60,779 bases of DNA from a virus. Location of the stretch: IMG/VR virus record IMGVR_UViG_3300045988_033451; one strand, given 5' to 3'. Within the stretch, counting starts at the first letter, position 1. Each line of letters starts with the position of its first letter. Both the position numbers and the translations under genes were made by a program. The notes under the pieces are model-generated. The model worked only from the letters and a program-made list of their open reading frames with translations. It made no database searches and was not told where the DNA came from. This document shows positions 26,858 to 35,716 of this stretch, in pieces.

Positions 26858-26980
26858 TTTATATTACCTCCTGTGAAAGATAACAGCACTCCACTTGTGC
26901 TTAGAACCTGTGAACAACAAATCAGCAAACAGACGGTCACAGTTCCGCTTTTCGCTTCGTCAAGCTAGTTTGCTGTAAAG

Positions 26981-27063
26981 TGTAGCAGGTGGATTCGAAC
27001 CACCATCCGGCTTTCATCGTTGTTTTCTGTGCGCACGCCACTCTACCATTGAGATATGCTACA
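26981..27063 (-). ncRNA. tRNA-like element A, with good acceptor, D and T arms but no anticodon stem
   Basis: TGTAGCA/TGCTACA acceptor, GGTGG-TTCGAAT-CCACC T arm, and a 34-nt middle with only 3-4 bp of pairing. Confidence 0.4.
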
Positions 27064-27339
27064 ATGTGCGGTTTCCGATGCAGACATTGTAACCGGTGTG
27101 GTATGCCATGCATCGGAATTTTTTTATTTCAGCAGGGATTACTGCAACGCCTGCTTATTCGGGACTACCCGACCGCTTGATGCGGCGTGGATTTGCACCA
27201 CACATATTCTTCTATAGCAGAACAGACACCCTCCGGGTCCTGCTTACCTATTTGCATACGCATCAACTGAAAAGCAAGATGGTTTTACGGATGCAAAGAT
27301 AACCAACAACTAAGCTCCGAGGTTCATTGCTTTTTCAAA

Positions 27340-27523: not shown

Positions 27524-27597
27524 ATCGACACGGAAGATTCGAACTCCACCTATATCGCAATATGCGAATTATGCTATCCAATTACACTACATGTCGA
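27524..27597 (-). ncRNA. tRNA-like element B, cloverleaf-compatible but with a 5-nt (ATATT) or non-canonical 7-nt (CAUAUUG) anticodon loop
   Basis: TCGACAT/GTGTCGA acceptor, TGGAG-TTCGAAT-CTTCC T arm and TCGC-ATATT-GCGA anticodon region. If it is a tRNA, the anticodon would be UAU with A33. Confidence 0.4.
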
Positions 27598-27789
27598 AGC
27601 GACTTTTTTCGCCGCGGGTTAGTCGAAATTGTGTGGCGCACGCGTGAACACCGCGCAAAATCCAAGACTGTTCGTTAGTCAATTATCGCGAATCAGTGAC
27701 ATAGAATCAGACAAGATATTACACTCACAACCCGATAAAAAATAGTTTGTTGCGTCAAAACGTATTCGTGGGTATGCAGGTTGTGAGAT

Positions 27790-27873
27790 ACGAAGCACCC
27801 GGAATCGAACCGGAATTTACGGGAAAACGTGGGGTGTGTAAAACCGTATGATCTGCCATTGATCTATGCTTCG
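27790..27873 (-). ncRNA. tRNA-like element C, with perfect acceptor, D and T arms and a 5-bp anticodon stem closing a 21-nt loop
   Basis: CGAAGCA/TGCTTCG acceptor, GATC-AATGGCA-GATC D arm, TACGG[TTTTACACACCCCACGTTTTC]CCGTA anticodon region and TCCGG-TTCGATT-CCGGG T arm. Confidence 0.4.
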
Positions 27874-28060
27874 TGTGCGCATCCTCTTGGGGAGACAGAC
27901 GCGCAAAAGGAGAAATGTGTGTTCCCCATGGAATAAAGGGGTTTATACGCGCCGGCATTCAACCGGCAAAACCCACCGAGCCTTGTGACGGCTCTTAACA
28001 GCTTTCCGCTAGTGGGTTACGAAAGGAGGATCCTAAAATGAAAAACATTAAGAATCCAAG

Positions 28061-28132
28061 CTGCCCTAGTTGGATTCGAACCAACAACTGCAGGAATCAA
28101 AGTCCTGTGCCTTACCATTTGGCGATAGGGCA
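28061..28132 (-). tRNA. tRNA-Gln (UUG)
   Basis: TGCCCTA/TAGGGCA acceptor, CAGGA-CTTTGAT-TCCTG anticodon arm and GTTGG-TTCGAAT-CCAAC T arm. Close to the Bacillus tRNA-Gln as I recall it. Confidence 0.85.
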
Positions 28133-28140
28133 TAAAACGC

Positions 28141-28734
28141 TTATGCAGCGTGTTCTGACAAAATTCTGTCTAAAGTCGGTCTTGATACACCAATGTTCTT
28201 CGCAAATGCAGACTTGGTGATCTTACCGGACCGGTAAAGAATCAAATTGCTGTCAAGCAATTCGCTATCTACAGTTTTCTTTGTACCGCCCTTGTATTTG
28301 CCTTCTTTCTTTGCAATAGCGATTCCTTCTGCCTGCCGCTCTCTGATATGTTCTCTTTCAAGATTCGCAACGTAGGAAAGAATCTGCAATACCAGATCGG
28401 CGATAAATGTGTCTGTCAAGTCTCCGGTTCTTCCAATAGTCGTGTCAAGTAGTGGCATATCGAGGACCTTAATGCCTGCTTTAATAGTCTTAGTAATTCT
28501 ACGCCATTCCTCCATGATCTCGTCATAGTTTCTGCCGAGCCGGTCGATAGAAAGGATAATTAGAACATCGTCGCTTGTTAAGTTGGCAATCATCTTTTGA
28601 TAATCAGGTCGTTCAAAATCCTTGCCTGATAACTTGTCTGTGTAAATCTTTTCGCATCCAGCATTTTTAAGTGCTTCTAACTGTCTTGCAAGGTTCTGTT
28701 CCTTGGTTGACACTCTCGCATAGCCTATAATCAT
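28141..28734 (-). CDS. Small serine recombinase (resolvase/invertase family, 197 aa)
   Basis: MIIGYARVSTKEQNLARQ... catalytic-Ser motif, SIDRLGRN, and a C-terminal HTH (SAFAKNIGVSRPTLDRIL). Confidence 0.85.
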   Translation of the reverse strand: MIIGYARVSTKEQNLARQLEALKNAGCEKIYTDKLSGKDFERPDYQKMIANLTSDDVLIILSIDRLGRNYDEIMEEWRRITKTIKAGIKVLDMPLLDTTIGRTGDLTDTFIADLVLQILSYVANLEREHIRERQAEGIAIAKKEGKYKGGTKKTVDSELLDSNLILYRSGKITKSAFAKNIGVSRPTLDRILSEHAA

Positions 28735-28782
28735 AATCACACACCCCTTATCTTTAATTGATATGGGTATTATATCACAAAA

Positions 28783-28847
28783 TGCAATGCTTTGCAATGC
28801 TTTGCAGTGCATTTTATTGCTTTGCAGTGCTTTGCATTGCAATATTT
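28783..28847. promoter_or_regulatory. Six 10-bp-phased TGCTTTGCA(N) repeats overlapping the divergent promoters
   Basis: Units begin at 28788, 28798, 28808, 28818, 28828 and 28838. A TTGCAA-17-TATATT promoter faces the RHH gene. Confidence 0.5.
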
Positions 28848-32892: not shown

Positions 32893-32933
32893 CCTTCGCC
32901 ATCTGGCGTCCTTTCGTTTTTGTTTGGTCTTAT

Positions 32934-32951
32934 TATAACGATATCGTTATA
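32934..32951. promoter_or_regulatory. Perfect 18-bp palindrome TATAACGATATCGTTATA
   Basis: Seen directly. Same word family as the sites at 33231-33434. Confidence 0.6.
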
Positions 32952-32978
32952 TTATGTCAATAGTTTTTCCTACTTTTT

Positions 32979-33209
32979 TCAATCCATAAACGGACATTTC
33001 CCCGGATCACCTTGATCCGCTTGATCTTCTGTGTTTTTTTGCTGATCTTCTAAGTGATCAAGCACGCATTTAACTATAAACCCGTTCAGGCTTTCGCCTG
33101 CCGCCGCTCTGATCCGCTCCTCGTCTTCTTTTCTGAATCTTACTAGAGCTTTAAAATATGCGTTTTTCTCATATTTAGCGGTTGCTTTTGCTTGTGCCTT
33201 TGTTGCCAT
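32979..33209 (-). CDS. Ribbon-helix-helix regulator
   Basis: KALVRFRKEDEERIRAAAGESLNGFIVKCVLDHL has an RHH pattern. The gene is flanked by palindromic sites. Confidence 0.6.
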   Translation of the reverse strand: MATKAQAKATAKYEKNAYFKALVRFRKEDEERIRAAAGESLNGFIVKCVLDHLEDQQKNTEDQADQGDPGKCPFMD

Positions 33210-33230
33210 AATAACGCCACCTTTCTATAT

Positions 33231-33434
33231 AATGATATCGTTATTATAACGCTACTATATATATAAGTCAATACTTTTTATAAAGCTATCGTTATTATAA
33301 CGATACTATATAATATAGAAGAAAAACAGTATATAAAGCTGGCTTTATACATATTGCACAACAAATATATAATGATAGCGTTATATATTTGTGCATTATT
33401 CCGTCTTGCAATAATATAACGATAGCGTTATACT
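33231..33434. promoter_or_regulatory. Divergent early control region with at least four ATAACGATA(T/G)CGTTAT-type sites and a TTGCAA-17-TATACT rightward promoter
   Basis: Sites near 33234-33254, 33285-33306, 33372-33388 and 33415-33430. The -35 is at 33406-33411 and the -10 at 33429-33434. Confidence 0.55.
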
Positions 33435-33481
33435 ATAACCAAGTTAAGAAACCAAGCACCAAACGAAAGGAAGAAAACAAT

Positions 33482-33595
33482 ATGAAAAATTACAAAATCA
33501 CAGACAAGGCAACAAAGGCAATAATCGGGATCATAGCAATGACACCAGATCAGGCGCGGAAGGTTGAAAAGGATTTCATAGTTAAGGAGGTATAA
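33482..33595 (+). CDS. Tiny ORF P1 (37 aa)
   Basis: AAAGGAAG RBS, first gene of the rightward operon. Confidence 0.4.
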   Translation: MKNYKITDKATKAIIGIIAMTPDQARKVEKDFIVKEV

Positions 33596-33597
33596 AC

Positions 33598-33852
33598 ATG
33601 ATAATAGGAATGTTAAACAACGGAACAACATGTACATACGATTTACCATCAGAGGTAAAGACAGCGGAAGAATTTAAAAGCCTTATATATGGCTACAATG
33701 ACGGAAGAATGGCAGAAAGCCAGCGTGAAGAACTTTACAACCAGCCTAAATTATTGGGCTTGAATGGTCCTATGTGGGGCGGCTGGGGAACTCTTAAAAG
33801 CACAGGCGAAACGGTCGCAATAATTCGATATGAAAAACCTTTAAATTTTTAG
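33598..33852 (+). CDS. Small ORF P2 (84 aa)
   Basis: GGAGG RBS. Confidence 0.55.
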   Translation: MIIGMLNNGTTCTYDLPSEVKTAEEFKSLIYGYNDGRMAESQREELYNQPKLLGLNGPMWGGWGTLKSTGETVAIIRYEKPLNF

Positions 33853-33913
33853 CCGAAACGCTCCGATCTTGGAGCGTCCACCGCGGGACGGTCTCCCGGT
33901 GCTGATGATGGCA
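33851..33913 (+). ncRNA. Hammerhead ribozyme motif HH1 (type II topology)
   Basis: GAA at 33855-57. Stem III is ACGCTCC/GGAGCGT (A15.1-U16.1) and C17 is at 33878. Stem I hairpin spans 33879-33901 and CUGAUGA spans 33902-08. Stem II is short (GGC/GCC with one extra U). Confidence 0.55.
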
Positions 33914-33932
33914 GACCAGAAAGGAAAAAAAT

Positions 33933-34085
33933 ATGAAATACACAATCAAGATCAGCGGAAAACAGTATAACGACAATTACACATATGACACACATAATGA
34001 CGGTGACTTCTTCGGAGAGATCAAGGAGATCATCGAAGAGATCGAAAAGGGAAATATTGATACCTTGGAATTATCAAAAAATTAG
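33933..34085 (+). CDS. Tiny ORF P3 (50 aa)
   Basis: AGAAAGGA RBS. Translation is MKYTIKISGKQYNDNYTYDTHNDGDFFGEIKEIIEEIEKGNIDTLELSKN. Preferred over the track ORF 33985..34233. Confidence 0.5.
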   Translation: MKYTIKISGKQYNDNYTYDTHNDGDFFGEIKEIIEEIEKGNIDTLELSKN

Positions 34086-34145
34086 TGTCGAAACCGCCCG
34101 CGCGGCGGTCTTGCGTAGGCTGGCAACCTTGCAACTGATGAGACA
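34086..34145 (+). ncRNA. Hammerhead ribozyme motif HH2 (type II topology)
   Basis: TGTC precedes GAA (34090-92). Stem III is ACCGCC/GGCGGT and C17 is at 34110. Stem I hairpin spans 34111-34134, CUGAUGA spans 34135-41, and GACA pairs with TGTC to form stem II. Confidence 0.65.
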
Positions 34146-34175
34146 AGCCGGATATATGAAAGGATGGTTGATTTT

Positions 34176-34352
34176 ATGGAATTTATGGAAAAATTGCAGA
34201 AGCAGAAAGACGAAGCAAAAGCGGCATACATAAAGGCGCGCGGCGAATGGTGGGAAACAAGAACCGCGCAAAATGTCAATGGCGATTTTGAAAAATGGAA
34301 AATTGTATGTGACAAAAAGCGCGATTGTATGCGCTTGGGCGTTCTTGTGTAG
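34176..34352 (+). CDS. Small ORF P4 (58 aa)
   Basis: AAAGGA RBS. The ATG at 34164 is an alternative start. Confidence 0.45.
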   Translation: MEFMEKLQKQKDEAKAAYIKARGEWWETRTAQNVNGDFEKWKIVCDKKRDCMRLGVLV

Positions 34353-34400
34353 GCAAGTGCAGACGGTGCAACTTTCCGGGGTTCGATCTCCCCGGCTTGC
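34353..34400 (+). ncRNA. T-arm/acceptor-like minihelix element 1
   Basis: GCAAG...CTTGC outer stem stacked on CCGGGG-TTCGATCT-CCCCGG. It starts at the first nt after the stop codon and is followed by TTTT. Confidence 0.4.
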
Positions 34401-34446
34401 TTTTACCCGGATAACCGGGTAAAATTAAAACATGGAGGTGTTGAAC

Positions 34447-34641
34447 ATGACAATTATTGAAAAAATGCAGAAGGACGGATATCCGAAAATTATAAAAGGA
34501 AATGGAGGTTTTAGAGCATATTTGAAAGATATACAGCCTTTGGGCGGTGGTGATTATATGGCCATATATAGTTATCCCGGCGGCGAATGCTGCCACAGCC
34601 TGGAAGAGATACAAAAATGTTTTGAAATCATCGAACAATAA
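34447..34641 (+). CDS. Small ORF P5 (64 aa)
   Basis: TGGAGGTG RBS. Confidence 0.55.
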   Translation: MTIIEKMQKDGYPKIIKGNGGFRAYLKDIQPLGGGDYMAIYSYPGGECCHSLEEIQKCFEIIEQ

Positions 34642-34686
34642 CCGCCGCAGAGGATGCACGCCGGAGCGATACCGGCGGCGGTTTTT
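34641..34686 (+). terminator. Minihelix element 2 / intrinsic terminator
   Basis: ACCGC...GCGGT outer stem with a CGCCGG-AGCGATA-CCGGCG inner stem, or alternatively an 8-bp ACCGCCGC/GCGGCGGT stem. Followed by T5. Confidence 0.5.
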
Positions 34687-34726
34687 CCCGGAATTGGGAA
34701 TAATTGAAATATGGAGGTATGGAACT

Positions 34727-34891
34727 ATGGAGATAACGAGGAAATTTGCAAGTTGCTATTCAGTGACACAAGGGGAAAAGATTTTATTTAATGGCAGCAT
34801 GGCGGAGTGCGTCGAGTATTTGAAAAAGCGCGGAATAGTTGTTGAATTTTGCGGATTATGCAACGAAAAAATAAAGTATAGCCGCATATAG
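34727..34891 (+). CDS. Small ORF P6 (54 aa)
   Basis: TGGAGGTA RBS. Confidence 0.5.
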   Translation: MEITRKFASCYSVTQGEKILFNGSMAECVEYLKKRGIVVEFCGLCNEKIKYSRI

Positions 34892-34933
34892 CAACGTTTG
34901 AGCATTGCGCCCGGTTCGATTTCGGGCGGTTGC
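34891..34933 (+). ncRNA. T-arm/acceptor-like minihelix element 3
   Basis: GCAAC...GTTGC outer stem stacked on CGCCCGG-TTCGATT-TCGGGCG. The loop matches the tRNA T-loop consensus. Confidence 0.4.
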
Positions 34934-35053
34934 ATTTGTTCTTGAAATAATAATAAAAAGGTGTATAATATGTATAATTTCTGCTATTGCAGATAATAAC
35001 ATATATCTTTATTTTGAGGACGCAAAAAATAAAACAAAATGGAGGTATACAAA

Positions 35054-35299
35054 ATGGAAAATTTGACACAGAAAGAAATGGAAGCTATCAAAAAAGCACT
35101 TGAAGAATTGGGATATTCAGAAATTGCGAAAAACTCAGACGACATGGCGCGCTGGTATGATGATGGGACTATAAGCATTAACACCGCTCGGAATGGTCGC
35201 GCTGTTGCTTGGGTGCTTCTTGAATCTTCCGAAAAGGCGTTATATGTCGACACGCTCGAAGAGTTGAGTGAAAAAGAAATAATCGATCAATTATGCTAA
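35054..35299 (+). CDS. Small ORF P7 (81 aa)
   Basis: TGGAGGTA RBS. Confidence 0.55.
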   Translation: MENLTQKEMEAIKKALEELGYSEIAKNSDDMARWYDDGTISINTARNGRAVAWVLLESSEKALYVDTLEELSEKEIIDQLC

Positions 35300-35304
35300 T
35301 TCAA

Positions 35305-35327
35305 AGCCGGGAAACCCCGGCTTTTTG
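35305..35327 (+). terminator. Rho-independent terminator of the rightward operon
   Basis: AGCCGGG-AAAC-CCCGGCT hairpin followed by TTTTT. Confidence 0.7.
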
Positions 35328-35334
35328 TCGTACC

Positions 35335-35363
35335 TTGACAATTTGACGACATAGGCATATTAT
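35335..35363 (+). promoter_or_regulatory. Near-consensus promoter (TTGACA-17-TATTAT) firing into an ORF-poor region
   Basis: TTGACA at 35335-40, a 17-nt spacer, TATTAT at 35358-63. Confidence 0.5.
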
Positions 35364-35507
35364 AGCCTTAATTATATCTATAGCGCTTTTATATGCCTTG
35401 TATGGTTCGCGTGGCTCTGTGAGCGTTCTACGCGTTAAGAAGTGTAAATATTCGCATGTGATAGGATTTAATTTACGCGCCTTGAAATTCTGCAACCACG
35501 CCCGGAC

Positions 35508-35716
35508 AGATCAGCAAGACAGACACCCGGAGAAGTGCGCCCGGATTCCATATGCCGGAGCATGGCGGAAGATCAGGACACCAAACCGGCGCAGCGGTAT
35601 ATCCGGAATTTGTGCAACATGTCGGCGATCTGCAAAAGATCAGCGCAAACGATCAGCACGCACCCGGACAGGTCCCGGAGTGAATCGCCCAAGATCAGCC
35701 AGCCGGCGAAGATCAG
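35508..35716 (+). repeat. Cluster of six direct (A/C)GATCAG heptamers plus one inverted GATC site within 210 bp
   Basis: Copies at 35508, 35570, 35637, 35650, 35692 and 35710, with the inverted site at 35627. The local sequence is GC-rich. Confidence 0.7.

What the first reader, a model, noticed from the sequence alone, without database searches (positions are those of the whole stretch)
34353..34933. Three paralogous T-arm/acceptor-like minihelices, so that every cistron of the operon ends in a structured RNA
The remaining intergenic gaps of the same operon each begin at or 1 nt after the stop codon and share one architecture. A 5-bp outer stem is followed by a 12-18-nt single-stranded 5' linker. 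A 6-7-bp hairpin then stacks directly on the 3' outer strand.

- 34353-34400: GCAAG...CCGGGG-TTCGATCT-CCCCGG-CTTGC.
- 34641-34682: ACCGC...CGCCGG-AGCGATA-CCGGCG-GCGGT.
- 34891-34933: GCAAC...CGCCCGG-TTCGATT-TCGGGCG-GTTGC.

Two of the loops match the tRNA T-loop consensus (TTCGAT). The stacking mimics the acceptor/T-arm minihelix, which is the minimal substrate of RNase P and CCA-adding enzymes.

Together with the two hammerheads, five consecutive stop codons are each followed by an RNA element. This suggests systematic post-transcriptional segmentation or 3'-end protection of a polycistronic early transcript. Alternatively, these could simply be elaborate intrinsic terminators, because two of them are followed by T runs, or members of a self-cleaving class I cannot recognise by eye.
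Basis: inference. Interest (0 to 1): 0.65.

Follow-up and report, generated by a model that had tools for sequence, protein, structure and literature searches.

The report
tRNA-like punctuation marks in phage operon
The three elements belong to a widespread, apparently undescribed family of small tRNA look-alikes (a tRNA without its anticodon arm) that sit between the genes of gut-phage early operons in the slots that hammerhead ribozymes occupy elsewhere, so they are probably cutting signals for the host's tRNA-processing enzymes.

Summary
The architecture needs revising.

- **Outer stem:** 7 bp in E1 and E2, overlapping the stop codon.
- **"Linker":** not single-stranded. It holds a conserved 3-bp hairpin (GCA-GAGGA/GACGG-TGC).
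- **Inner hairpin:** a 5-bp stem with a 7-nt loop, stacked on the outer stem. That gives 7+5 bp, the size of a tRNA acceptor/T-arm.

E2 is a canonical member of a family with more than 120 copies in IMG/VR gut-phage contigs, and 6 of its 7 outer-stem pairs covary. E1 belongs to a sister type (39 contigs) and has a 1-nt insertion in its loop. E3 is a weakened member of a third type.

Rfam 15 has no model for the family; the best match is mascRNA at 20 bits. In close relatives every internal gap of 80 nt or more carries a hammerhead or one of these elements, while last genes carry a plain terminator. Orthologous genes are followed by a hammerhead in one phage and a tRNA-like element in another. 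A similar tRNA-like junction sits inside the phage's tRNA array.

My best reading (about 0.5) is that these are tRNA mimics cut by RNase P and/or RNase Z, which segments the early transcript. No cleavage has been shown.

The parts
33851..33920 (+). Type II hammerhead ribozyme directly after the stop codon of ORF2 (33598-33852). The predicted cleavage site is after GUC, between 33878 and 33879.
   Evidence: Rfam RF02276 at 62 bits against a cut-off of 37. The same ribozyme follows ORF2 homologues in relatives.
34086..34153 (+). Second type II hammerhead, after ORF3 (33933-34085). It scores below Rfam's cut-off but has an intact CUGAUGA...GAAAC...GUC core.
   Evidence: RF02276 at 26.5 bits, E = 0.012. 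It is conserved after ORF3 homologues, with a compensatory change in stem I (UUGCA/UGCAA versus UGGCG/UGCCA).
34352..34401 (+). E1, a tRNA-like element of type B. Its segments are GGCAAGU (outer 5' strand), GCA-GACGG-UGC (small hairpin), AACUUUC (linker), CGGGG-UUCGAUCU-CCCCG (T-arm-like hairpin) and GCUUGCU (outer 3' strand). The loop is 8 nt, one more than in relatives.
   Evidence: mascRNA-menRNA (tRNA-like) is its only Rfam hint, at 20.4 bits and E = 0.53. A type-B pattern scan matched 39 viral contigs; 26 distinct descriptor-selected type B/C/D/b4 sequences plus window E1 are 98% pair-compatible, with one covarying pair.
34402..34423 (+). Trailing hairpin after E1 (UUUUACCCGG-AUAA-CCGGGUAAAA), followed by the Shine-Dalgarno sequence (SD) of ORF5.
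   Evidence: The family-wide trailing hairpin has a mean energy of -6.1 against -2.4 kcal/mol for shuffles, p = 2e-20, and starts 0-4 nt after the element in 88% of cases.
34640..34683 (+). E2, a canonical tRNA-like element of type A. Its segments are AACCGCC, GCA-GAGGA-UGC, AC, GCCGG-AGCGAUA-CCGGC and GGCGGUU. The first two bases are the last two of the TAA stop codon.
   Evidence: Model R1 scores it 76 bits, E = 1.8e-17. The family alignment A4 has 121 hits and 53 distinct sequences, is 95.6% paired, and 6 of 7 outer pairs show compensatory changes with 0 of 500 shuffles reaching the observed values.
34685..34700 (+). Trailing hairpin after E2 (UUCCCG-GAAU-UGGGAA), followed by the SD of ORF6.
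34890..34934 (+). E3, a weakened member of a third type. Its segments are AGCAACG, UUUGAGCAUUGC, GCCCGG-UUCGAUU-UCGGGC and GGUUGCA. Only 5 outer pairs form, and there is no stable small hairpin.
   Evidence: Relatives carry AGCAACC...GGUUGUU (7 bp) with UUGGAG. R1 gives it only 9.5 bits, E = 0.38. Natural E2/E3 chimeras occur in L236 and L067.
34942..34969 (+). Promoter-like site (TTGAAA, 16 nt, TATAAT) between E3 and ORF7. If real, E3 closes the upstream transcription unit.
   Evidence: 11 of 12 matches. It is conserved in L233, L239 and L240.
35303..35327 (+). Plain intrinsic terminator after ORF7 (AAAGCCGGGAAACCCCGGCUUUUUG). It shows what the end of an operon looks like in this phage group.
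   Evidence: equivalent terminators end the arrays of L234, L236, L237, L239 and L240.
27971..28017 (-). Type F tRNA-like three-way junction inside the phage tRNA array. Its segments are ACCCACU, AGC-GGAAA-GCU, GUUAA, GAGCC-GUCACAA-GGCUC and GGUGGGU, followed by UUU and a hairpin. It lies 42 nt downstream of tRNA-Gln.
   Evidence: It sits next to tRNA genes in L013, L028, L035 and L043 and in L082. Whether it is related to E1-E3 is inferred from its architecture only; R1 gives 7.1 bits.

Best explanation
E1-E3 are cis-acting tRNA mimics, abbreviated TL. Each is the "top half" of a tRNA: a 7-bp acceptor-like stem stacked on a 5-bp T-arm-like hairpin, plus a miniature D-arm whose loop supplies the GG that would dock on the T-loop. 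The anticodon arm is missing.

They are transcribed as part of the phage's early polycistronic mRNA. I propose that the host's tRNA-maturation endonucleases recognise them. RNase P would cut at the 5' edge of the outer stem, and/or RNase Z would cut just after the unpaired base that follows it. The long transcript would then be cut between cistrons, which is what the hammerheads do autonomously in the neighbouring gaps.

After the 3' cut, the downstream mRNA would begin with at most about 4 unpaired U followed by the conserved trailing hairpin. That is a 5' end of the kind that protects mRNAs from 5'-dependent decay.

- **Shown:** the anatomy, its conservation and covariation, the tRNA-like dimensions and loop residues, the position rules, and the replacement by hammerheads.
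- **Inferred:** that cleavage happens, which enzyme does it, and what it does to expression.
For: 1. **It is a real family.** A core pattern found 111 IMG/VR contigs, of which 3 are chance hits. Model R1 finds 121 copies in 100 loci.
2. **The structure is supported.** 95.6% of cells pair, 6 of 7 outer pairs carry compensatory changes, and 0 of 500 shuffles reach the observed values. Sliding the partner columns drops pairing to 28-47%. RNAalifold recovers the three-helix topology on an independent MAFFT alignment. G.U pairs outnumber A.C by 36 to 17, which favours the + strand RNA.
3. **The metrics are tRNA-like.**
   - Among 194 descriptor hits the T-like stem is 5 bp in 174 and 6 bp in 20. 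The 7-bp outer stem and 7-nt loop were fixed by the descriptor, so only the 5-versus-6 split is an observation.
   - Loops are UUCGAUU, UUCAAUU or UUCAACU in types B, C and E3.
   - The descriptor required C at loop position 3; independently, every hand-inspected variant loop keeps it.
   - The small loop nearly always contains GG.
   - The small hairpin is realised by different sequences in different types: GCA/UGC, GCCG/CGGC, AAG/CUU, AGC/GCU.
   - Rfam's only hints are tRNA-like models: mascRNA for E1 and the tmRNA T-arm for a type-B copy.
4. **The position rule holds.** 62% of strict hits abut the stop codon of an ORF of at least 30 codons, against 10% for random positions. In six close relatives every internal gap of 80 nt or more holds a hammerhead or a TL, while last genes have plain terminators. 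ORF5 loses its TL for a terminator when it is the last gene, in L237.
5. **Hammerheads and TLs are interchangeable.** Orthologues of the "...RKAVEKIA" gene are followed by a TL in L028, L102, L055, L080, L088, L234, L239 and L240. In L092 the orthologue is followed by a hammerhead that Rfam confirms at 48.7 bits. A second gene family shows the same swap, L029 against L082.
6. **The layout makes sense for a 3' cut.** TLs are followed by a few U and then an extra hairpin. Hammerheads are not; their own stem I would be the 5' hairpin of the downstream product.
7. **The same machinery is already in use.** The phage's own tRNA genes lack an encoded CCA and have T-rich trailers like those of the TLs, and a similar three-way junction sits inside the tRNA array.
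8. **Background knowledge.** Acceptor/T-arm minihelices are sufficient RNase P substrates, and clustered prophage hammerheads process polycistronic RNA in vitro (PMC3088659).
Against: - No transcript-end, RNA-seq or enzymatic data exist for any member.
- In 60 of 69 cases the outer stem overlaps the stop codon by 1-2 nt. A canonical RNase P cut would therefore remove part of the stop codon and leave the upstream cistron without a stop or a 3' hairpin. That is awkward unless RNase Z alone acts or the upstream fragment is meant to decay.
- Type A loops (ACCGAUA, AGCGAUA, AUCACUA) depart from the T-loop consensus at positions 1, 2 and sometimes 5.
- About 10% of type A copies are recombinants with two mismatches in the outer stem.
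- The small hairpin and the T-like stem are nearly invariant within each type, so their covariation rests on comparisons between types selected by a descriptor.
- A U run follows nearly every copy, which also fits a terminator.
- R1 does not link E1, E3 or type F to E2 significantly.
Confidence: 0.5

Rival explanations
1. The elements are a new class of self-cleaving ribozyme. The three-way junction would cut itself, which would explain directly why it swaps places with hammerheads.
For: The elements occupy the same slot as hammerheads and replace them after orthologous genes. Earlier ribozyme classes were found by looking near hammerheads (PMC5737381). The small hairpin sequence is strongly conserved within each type. 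No Rfam ribozyme family matches, so any such class would be new.
Against: No nucleotide outside the helices is conserved across types. The junctions are 0 nt and a variable 2-8 nt (CA, AC, CC, AGCGUUC and others). The features shared by all types are helix lengths, a GG in the small loop and a C at position 3 of a 7-nt loop; these are tRNA-elbow hallmarks rather than a catalytic core. A similar junction lies inside a tRNA array.
Confidence: 0.1
2. The elements are structural RNA elements that do not involve tRNA enzymes. They could be leaky intrinsic terminators or attenuators. Alternatively they could be 3'-end caps, with the actual cut made by RNase Y, E or J in the U-rich spacer between the element and the trailing hairpin.
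For: A GC-rich closing stem is followed by 3-5 U in almost every copy. The simple scan flags all three as terminator-like. E3 is followed by a promoter-like site, so it may end a transcription unit. A single-stranded U run between two structures is a typical site for RNase E or RNase Y (general knowledge).
Against: True operon ends in the same phages use plain hairpin-plus-U6 terminators, and the TL is dropped when its gene becomes the last one. A terminator does not need the conserved small hairpin, the loop C, the GG or the fixed 7+5-bp geometry. Hammerheads, which are not terminators, substitute for the elements. Type B outer stems (GGCAAGU/GCUUGCU, with two wobble pairs) are poor terminator stems.
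Confidence: 0.15
3. Processing is only the means. The product that matters would be the excised 45-50-nt tRNA "top half", acting in trans. It could be a decoy or sponge for host factors that recognise the tRNA elbow or acceptor end: RNase P, CCA-adding enzyme, acceptor-targeting toxins or defence nucleases.
For: The small hairpin and loop residues are conserved more tightly than a mere cutting signal seems to need. A similar element sits in the tRNA array, where no cistrons need separating. There are several copies per operon, in an early operon of small orphan genes next to the lysis-lysogeny switch.
Against: The tight link to gene junctions and the swap with hammerheads, which release no such RNA, point to a cis role. 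There is no evidence that the RNA accumulates, and no identity elements such as G3.U70.
Confidence: 0.1
4. The elements act at the DNA level. They would be conserved recombination sites that shuffle gene cassettes, in the manner of integron attC sites, with the RNA fold being incidental.
For: Near-identical phages differ by whole gene-plus-element cassettes. Chimeric elements mark deletion or exchange points: the E2/E3 chimera in L236 and L067, and mismatched outer strands in L013, L017, L021, L070 and L107.
Against: G.U pairs outnumber A.C pairs, so the fold is strand-specific, as expected for RNA. Compensatory changes maintain the helices. Validated RNA elements (hammerheads) occupy the same slots. 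No dedicated recombinase is linked to the array. Homologous recombination between any repeated 45-nt sequence would yield the same chimeras as a by-product.
Confidence: 0.05

Closest known systems
Mitochondrial tRNA punctuation and plant mitochondrial t-elements (Forner et al. 2007, PMC1920247)
   Same: tRNAs or tRNA-like structures lie between coding regions of a polycistronic transcript and serve as cutting marks for RNase P (5') and RNase Z (3'). The cut can fall inside the stop codon, as it would here for type A.
   Different: The setting here is bacteriophage and bacterium, not an organelle. The elements lack the anticodon arm altogether, they alternate with self-cleaving ribozymes, and no polyadenylation is known that would repair a truncated stop codon. 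Cleavage is untested.
mascRNA / MEN-beta tRNA-like elements (Rfam RF01684)
   Same: A tRNA-like fold embedded in a longer transcript, whose role is to recruit RNase P and RNase Z for end formation. It is the only full-length Rfam hint for E1.
   Different: The score is 20.4 bits against a cut-off of 42.5, so this is resemblance and not membership. mascRNA keeps an anticodon-stem equivalent, is eukaryotic, and occurs once per transcript.
Clustered hammerhead ribozymes flanking genes in prophages (Perreault et al. 2011, PMC3088659)
   Same: The same genomic niche and the same proposed function, cutting long phage transcripts into gene-length mRNAs. Two such hammerheads lie in this very operon, and hammerheads replace TLs after orthologous genes.
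   Different: TLs have no hammerhead core and no match to any ribozyme family. They would depend on host enzymes and would leave 5'-phosphate/3'-OH ends rather than 5'-OH/2',3'-cyclic phosphate ends.
Acceptor/T-arm minihelix model substrates of RNase P and CCA-adding enzyme (general knowledge; reviewed in PMC4919913 as the "molecular ruler" on the tRNA elbow)
   Same: A 12-bp coaxial stack capped by a T-loop is the minimal recognised unit. TLs reproduce 7+5 bp and add a D-loop-like GG for the elbow.
   Different: The minihelices are laboratory constructs. The TLs are natural, carry a mini D-arm, lack a 3' CCA, and type A loops deviate from the UUCRAnY consensus.
tmRNA tRNA-like domain and bacterial Y-RNA (YrlA) tRNA-like modules
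   Same: Natural bacterial tRNA mimics that keep the acceptor, the T-arm and a reduced D region but have no anticodon arm. A type-B T-arm gives a local tmRNA hit of 15.4 bits.
   Different: There is no G3.U70, no mRNA-like or Ro-binding module, and the size is far smaller (44-50 nt). The TLs are embedded in mRNA gaps rather than being stand-alone genes.
Synthetic insulators (RiboJ: ribozyme + hairpin + ribosome-binding site (RBS); tRNA-spaced guide arrays) - general knowledge
   Same: The same parts order is seen here: a cutting element, then a hairpin, then the RBS.
   Different: Those are engineered parts. Here the arrangement is natural and recurrent.

Membership tests
tRNA genes (Rfam RF00005 / ARAGORN) | Cloverleaf with an anticodon arm, scored above the family threshold | tested here: not met
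   No RF00005 hit at E <= 10 over 33400-35400. ARAGORN finds only the three array tRNAs. No TL is scored as a tRNA in 10 loci. Only 11-25 nt lie between the outer stem and the T-like arm.
tRNA-like processing elements (t-elements, mascRNA type) | Acceptor-like stem stacked coaxially on a T-arm-like hairpin (about 12 bp), maintained in evolution | tested here: met
   The T-like stem is 5 bp in 174 of 194 descriptor hits, giving a 7+5-bp stack (the 7-bp outer stem was fixed by the descriptor). 6 of 7 outer pairs covary, with 0 of 500 shuffles reaching the observed values. RNAalifold gives the same topology.
tRNA-like processing elements (t-elements, mascRNA type) | T-loop-like 7-nt loop and a D-loop partner (G18 G19 with U55 C56) | tested here: inconclusive
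   Types B, C and E3 have UUCGAUU, UUCAAUU or UUCAACU. Type A has ACCGAUA, AGCGAUA or AUCACUA. C at loop position 3 was a selection criterion of the descriptor set (43 of 43 is by construction), but it is also present in every hand-inspected variant loop. GG is present in most small loops. Tertiary pairing cannot be tested from sequence.
tRNA-like processing elements (t-elements, mascRNA type) | Cleavage by RNase P at the 5' edge and/or RNase Z at the 3' edge | not testable with these tools
   No transcriptome or enzymology is available. Only indirect support exists: the swap with hammerheads, the trailing hairpin, and CCA-less phage tRNAs with similar trailers.
mascRNA-menRNA (Rfam RF01684) | Score at or above the gathering threshold of 42.5 bits | tested here: not met
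   E1 scores 20.4 bits, E = 0.53. E2 and E3 give no hit.
Known self-cleaving ribozymes (hammerhead, twister, twister-sister, pistol, hatchet, HDV-like, hairpin) | Match to the family covariance model, that is, the conserved catalytic core | tested here: not met
   Searches at E <= 10 over the operon and E <= 5 over L234 give no ribozyme hit on any TL, and the hammerhead hits lie in other gaps. There is no CUGAUGA or GAAA core.
Intrinsic (Rho-independent) terminators | A GC-rich hairpin immediately followed by a U tract, located at the end of a transcription unit | tested here: inconclusive
   A U run of 3-5 follows the outer stem, and the simple scan flags all three. However, the structure is branched, the elements sit at internal junctions, and operon ends in relatives use plain terminators instead.
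tmRNA tRNA-like domain | G3.U70 alanine identity pair, and linkage to a tag reading frame | tested here: not met
   Outer stems are A-U/A-U/C-G or G.U/G-C/C-G at positions 1-3. There is only a local T-arm hit of 15.4 bits. ARAGORN finds no tmRNA.

The most novel reading that the evidence does not exclude
The phage turns every gene junction into a source of a stable 45-50-nt tRNA "top half". Once excised by RNase P and RNase Z, and possibly CCA-tailed, these RNAs would act in trans as decoys for host factors that read the tRNA elbow or acceptor end. Candidates are acceptor-modifying or acceptor-cleaving abortive-infection toxins, or RNase P itself. The punctuation marks would then double as an RNA-based counter-defence, and their repeated sequence would drive shuffling of the small early genes as cassettes.
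Probability: 0.1. Interest if true: 0.9.

Novelty: new variant of a known kind. Interest (0 to 1): 0.7.

Why it matters
- **It bears on an open question.** What prophage hammerheads are for is still unresolved; the 2019 review says "additional work is needed" (PMC6765202). If a host-enzyme cutting signal and a self-cleaving ribozyme are interchangeable after the same gene, then cleavage between cistrons is what is selected. The ribozyme would not be selected for being a ribozyme. That makes the question directly testable with one construct.
- **It would extend tRNA punctuation.** This would be the first case I can find of tRNA-style punctuation, known from mitochondria, in a bacteriophage operon. 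The full-text searches I ran found no description.
- **It adds a compact RNA family.** The family is abundant and absent from Rfam 15.
- **It offers natural parts for synthetic operons.** The order is cutter, then hairpin, then RBS.
- **It may explain mosaicism.** The repeated elements could account for how blocks of small early genes are shuffled between gut phages.

Tried and rejected
- **Protein annotation.** Pfam and PHROGs scans of the seven operon proteins and the divergent 76-aa protein gave nothing useful, so the genes give no functional handle.
- **Phage GenBank records.** Only the hammerhead matches, in 3 records, and there are no close relatives of the structural half.
- **Genome-contig scan.** No real copy was recovered, so the host is not identified.
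- **Model R1.** Built from type A, it does not reach E1, E3 or type F significantly even with filters off (8.5, 9.5 and 7.1 bits). Kinship between the types rests on architecture, the shared GCA/UGC hairpin, context and natural chimeras.
- **MAFFT across types.** It mis-registers types C and D and the 6-bp variants. I therefore could not run tool-based covariation for the small hairpin across types. The between-type comparison comes from my own descriptor parse, which requires pairing by construction.
- **Literature.** Full-text searches for the motif sequences returned only unrelated primer hits. The phage structured-RNA catalogue (PMC10690425) mentions tRNA-like candidates, but no sequences are held.
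- **Exact look-up of ORF5.** The 69-aa form failed; the 64-aa form, starting at 34447, is the one on record.
- **Ideas considered and dropped.** attP or tRNA-3'-half remnants: each element has both outer strands, and the elements sit at gene junctions. CRISPR-repeat mimics: no repeat match. tmRNA-like function: no G3.U70.
Full report
**What is in the window.**

The + strand from 33482 to 35299 carries seven small genes. All have good Shine-Dalgarno (SD) sites and none has a Pfam or PHROG match. They lie downstream of a divergent switch region with five copies of the palindrome TATAACGATATCGTTATA.

- Rfam finds a type II hammerhead directly after ORF2, at 33851-33920 (62 bits).
- A weaker one follows ORF3, at 34086-34153 (26.5 bits).
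- ORF1 is followed by a 2-nt gap.
- ORF7 has its own promoter-like site (34942-34969) and a plain terminator (35303-35327).

**Revised anatomy.**

E2 reads:

AACCGCC | GCA-GAGGA-UGC | AC | GCCGG-AGCGAUA-CCGGC | GGCGGUU (34640-34683)

That is a 7-bp outer stem, a 3-bp hairpin with a 5-nt loop, a 2-nt linker, and a 5-bp stem with a 7-nt loop stacked directly on the outer 3' strand. E1 (34352-34401) has the same plan:

GGCAAGU | GCA-GACGG-UGC | AACUUUC | CGGGG-UUCGAUCU-CCCCG | GCUUGCU

RNAfold gives these shapes as the minimum-energy structures of E1 and E2.

The result is a tRNA without its anticodon arm. It has a 7-bp acceptor-like stem, a miniature D-arm whose loop carries GG, a short variable-loop-like linker, and a 5-bp T-arm-like stem with a 7-nt loop.

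E3 (34890-34934) fits less well. It has 5 outer pairs, a G.U pair in the inner stem, no stable small hairpin, and a fold no better than shuffles.

**It is a family.**

A pattern for the shared core is absent from shuffles of the window. It hits 111 IMG/VR contigs, almost all from human-gut samples, and 3 of those are obvious chance hits.

- A covariance model built from 19 type-A copies (R1) finds 121 copies in 100 loci. There are often two or three per operon, and some have loop or hairpin variants that the pattern could not see.
- On the resulting alignment 95.6% of cells pair.
- Six of the seven outer-stem pairs carry compensatory changes, for example AACCGCC/GGCGGUU, AGCCAUU/AAUGGCU, UCCCGCC/GGCGGGA and ACCUGCC/GGCAGGA.
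- No shuffle reaches the observed values, and sliding the partners collapses pairing to 28-47%.
- RNAalifold on a plain MAFFT alignment recovers the same three helices.
- G.U pairs outnumber A.C pairs by 36 to 17, so the + strand RNA is the folded species.

Within type A the small hairpin and the T-like stem hardly vary, so they are conserved rather than covarying.

**Sister types.**

I wrote a sequence-blind descriptor: a 7-bp outer stem, 8-25 nt, then a 5-bp stem with a 7-8-nt loop abutting the outer 3' strand. It finds 258 hits in the fetched loci against 22 in shuffled controls. The hits show further types in the same phages:

| Type | Outer 5' strand | Small hairpin | T-like arm | Note |
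|---|---|---|---|---|
| B | GGCAAGU | GCA-GRCGG-UGC | CGGGG-UUCGAUU-CCCCG | E1's type; a type-B pattern scan hit 39 contigs; 26 distinct B/C/D/b4 sequences incl. window E1 are 98% pair-compatible, one covarying pair |
| C | GGCAACC | GCCG-AAGG-CGGC | loop UUCAACU | |
| D | AGCAAGU | AAG-ACAGG-CUU | | |
| E3 type | AGCAACC | UUGGAGCAUUGC (no clear hairpin) | GCCCGG-UUCGAUU-CCGGGC | outer 3' strand GGUUGUU |
| F | ACCCACU | AGC-GGAAA-GCU | GAGCC-GUCACAA-GGCUC | |

Across types the small hairpin is built from different sequences. Its loop almost always holds GG, and every variant loop I inspected by hand keeps C at position 3. In the descriptor-selected set that C was a selection criterion, so its invariance there is by construction.

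These comparisons come from a descriptor that demands pairing. They show diversity of realisation and are not an independent pairing test.

R1 does not connect E1, E3 or F to E2 significantly. The link rests on four things: the architecture, the shared GCA/UGC hairpin of types A and B, the identical context, and natural E2/E3 chimeras (L236 and L067).

Relative to its family, window E1 has one extra base in the loop, and window E3 has lost pairs and one G of the GG.

**Not a known family.**

Rfam 15 at gathering thresholds reports nothing on the elements. At E <= 10 the only hit is mascRNA-menRNA, a tRNA-like processing element, for E1 at 20.4 bits against a cut-off of 42.5. A type-B copy gives a local hit to the tmRNA T-arm.

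No ribozyme model matches, and ARAGORN and RF00005 do not call the elements tRNAs. Full-text searches found no description of the motif.

**Context rules.**

- 62% of strict hits abut the stop codon of an ORF of at least 30 codons, against 10% for random positions. In 60 of those 69 cases the stop codon overlaps the outer stem by 1-2 nt.
- Two thirds have an SD and a start codon within 110 nt downstream.
- After the outer stem come 0-4 mostly U residues and then a second hairpin of variable sequence. Across 137 distinct tails the mean energy is -6.1 against -2.4 kcal/mol for shuffles, p = 2e-20.
- I looked up eight near-identical phages by exact match of ORF5 and inspected six of them. They carry differently shuffled arrays of the same gene-plus-element cassettes. 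Every internal gap of 80 nt or more holds a hammerhead or a tRNA-like element, and every last gene ends in a plain hairpin-plus-U terminator.
- In L237, ORF5 is the last gene and has the terminator in place of its usual element.

**Interchange with hammerheads.**

I clustered all ORFs that are followed by either kind of element. This gave two gene families in which orthologues differ in what follows them.

1. The "...RKAVEKIA" gene is followed by a type-B element in at least eight loci. In L092 it is followed by a hammerhead that Rfam confirms at 48.7 bits.
2. The "...NRLYVFNTARxILAD" gene is followed by a hammerhead-like element with an intact core in L029, below Rfam's threshold, and by a type-B element in L082.

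Hammerhead II co-occurs with the elements in many operons. Gaps with a hammerhead have no extra hairpin before the SD, while gaps with a tRNA-like element do. That fits a layout in which the downstream product always starts with a hairpin: hammerhead stem I in one case, the trailing hairpin in the other.

**Link to tRNA metabolism.**

The phage has a tRNA array on the minus strand. Its tRNA genes lack an encoded CCA and have T-rich trailers. In Firmicutes that implies 3' maturation by RNase Z followed by CCA addition (general knowledge). The elements have the same kind of trailer.

A type-F junction lies in that array (27971-28017, minus strand), 42 nt after tRNA-Gln. The same holds in L013, L028, L035, L043 and L082.

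**Interpretation.**

The most economical reading is that these are tRNA "top-half" mimics that recruit RNase P and/or RNase Z to cut the early transcript between cistrons. This would be a host-enzyme equivalent of the hammerheads, and a bacteriophage counterpart of mitochondrial tRNA punctuation and plant t-elements (PMC1920247).

Clustered prophage hammerheads have been shown to cut polycistronic RNA in vitro, and their purpose is still regarded as open (PMC3088659; PMC6765202).

I put this reading at about 0.5, because nothing here demonstrates cleavage.

The main internal difficulty is that a canonical RNase P cut at type A elements would remove part of the stop codon. Either RNase Z alone matters, leaving the element as a 3' cap on the upstream mRNA, or the upstream fragment is meant to be short-lived.

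**Rivals.**

- **A new self-cleaving class (0.1).** It explains the swap equally well. It is disfavoured by the absence of conserved junction nucleotides and by the tRNA-like invariants.
- **Terminators, or structural caps with an RNase Y/E cut in the U run (0.15).** Both are compatible with the U runs. The terminator version fits poorly with the internal-only placement and the conserved loops.
- **A trans-acting excised RNA (0.1).**
- **A DNA-level recombination site (0.05).** Chimeras show that the repeats do mediate cassette deletion and exchange. Strand-specific G.U pairing and covariation argue that selection acts on the RNA.

**Verdict.**

E2 is a textbook member of the family, E1 a slightly aberrant one, and E3 a decayed one. 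The family appears undescribed and would be well worth a bench test.

Noticed in passing
window 27971-28017 (-), with upstream 28018-28033: A further tRNA-like three-way junction (type F) lies inside the phage tRNA array. It is preceded by GGATCCTCCTTTC, which resembles the anti-Shine-Dalgarno 3' end of 16S rRNA. Its reverse complement is a strong SD plus ATG, but that ORF (28038-28220) would run antisense to tRNA-Gln. The pairing recurs in other phages. In L082 the junction sits between a tRNA and a ROOL RNA (361 bits).
   Followed up: partly
window 26990-27075, 27530-27600 and 27789-27874 (-): There are irregular tRNA-like sequences in the array. ARAGORN calls 27789-27874 tRNA-Val, but Rfam does not confirm it. 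Two other stretches have good T-arms (GGTTCGAATCC) but odd or interrupted bodies.
   Followed up: no
window 26907-26975 (-): An int-alpA RNA (Rfam RF02996, 50 bits) lies just downstream of the tRNA array. The same arrangement is seen in L003, L028, L029 and L035.
   Followed up: no
window 32925-33440: The lysis-lysogeny-type switch has five copies of the palindrome TATAACGATATCGTTATA, interleaved with strong divergent promoter-like sites. A 76-aa leftward gene (32979-33209) matches only phrog_13890, of unknown function.
   Followed up: partly
window 35335-35363 and 35508-35716: A near-consensus promoter-like site (TTGACA, 17 nt, TATTAT) follows the ORF7 terminator and is conserved in relatives. 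After it comes a non-coding stretch with five AGATCAG repeats. The whole window has 16 copies against 8.2 expected.
   Followed up: no
L233-L240 (relatives of window 33400-35400); L236 3196-3283; L013, L017, L021, L070, L107: Near-identical phages differ by whole gene-plus-element cassettes. L236 and L067 carry an E2/E3 chimera that marks deletion of the ORF6 cassette. About 10% of type A copies have outer strands from two different parents, giving two mismatches.
   Followed up: partly
L234 2562-2650: A third hammerhead-like gap has CCGATGA in place of CUGAUGA in its core. Rfam does not detect it at E <= 5, so it may be a variant or an inactive ribozyme.
   Followed up: no
window 28141-28842 (-): A 233-aa serine-recombinase-like ORF (MIIGYARVSTKEQ...) lies immediately upstream of the tRNA array on the same strand.
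   Followed up: no
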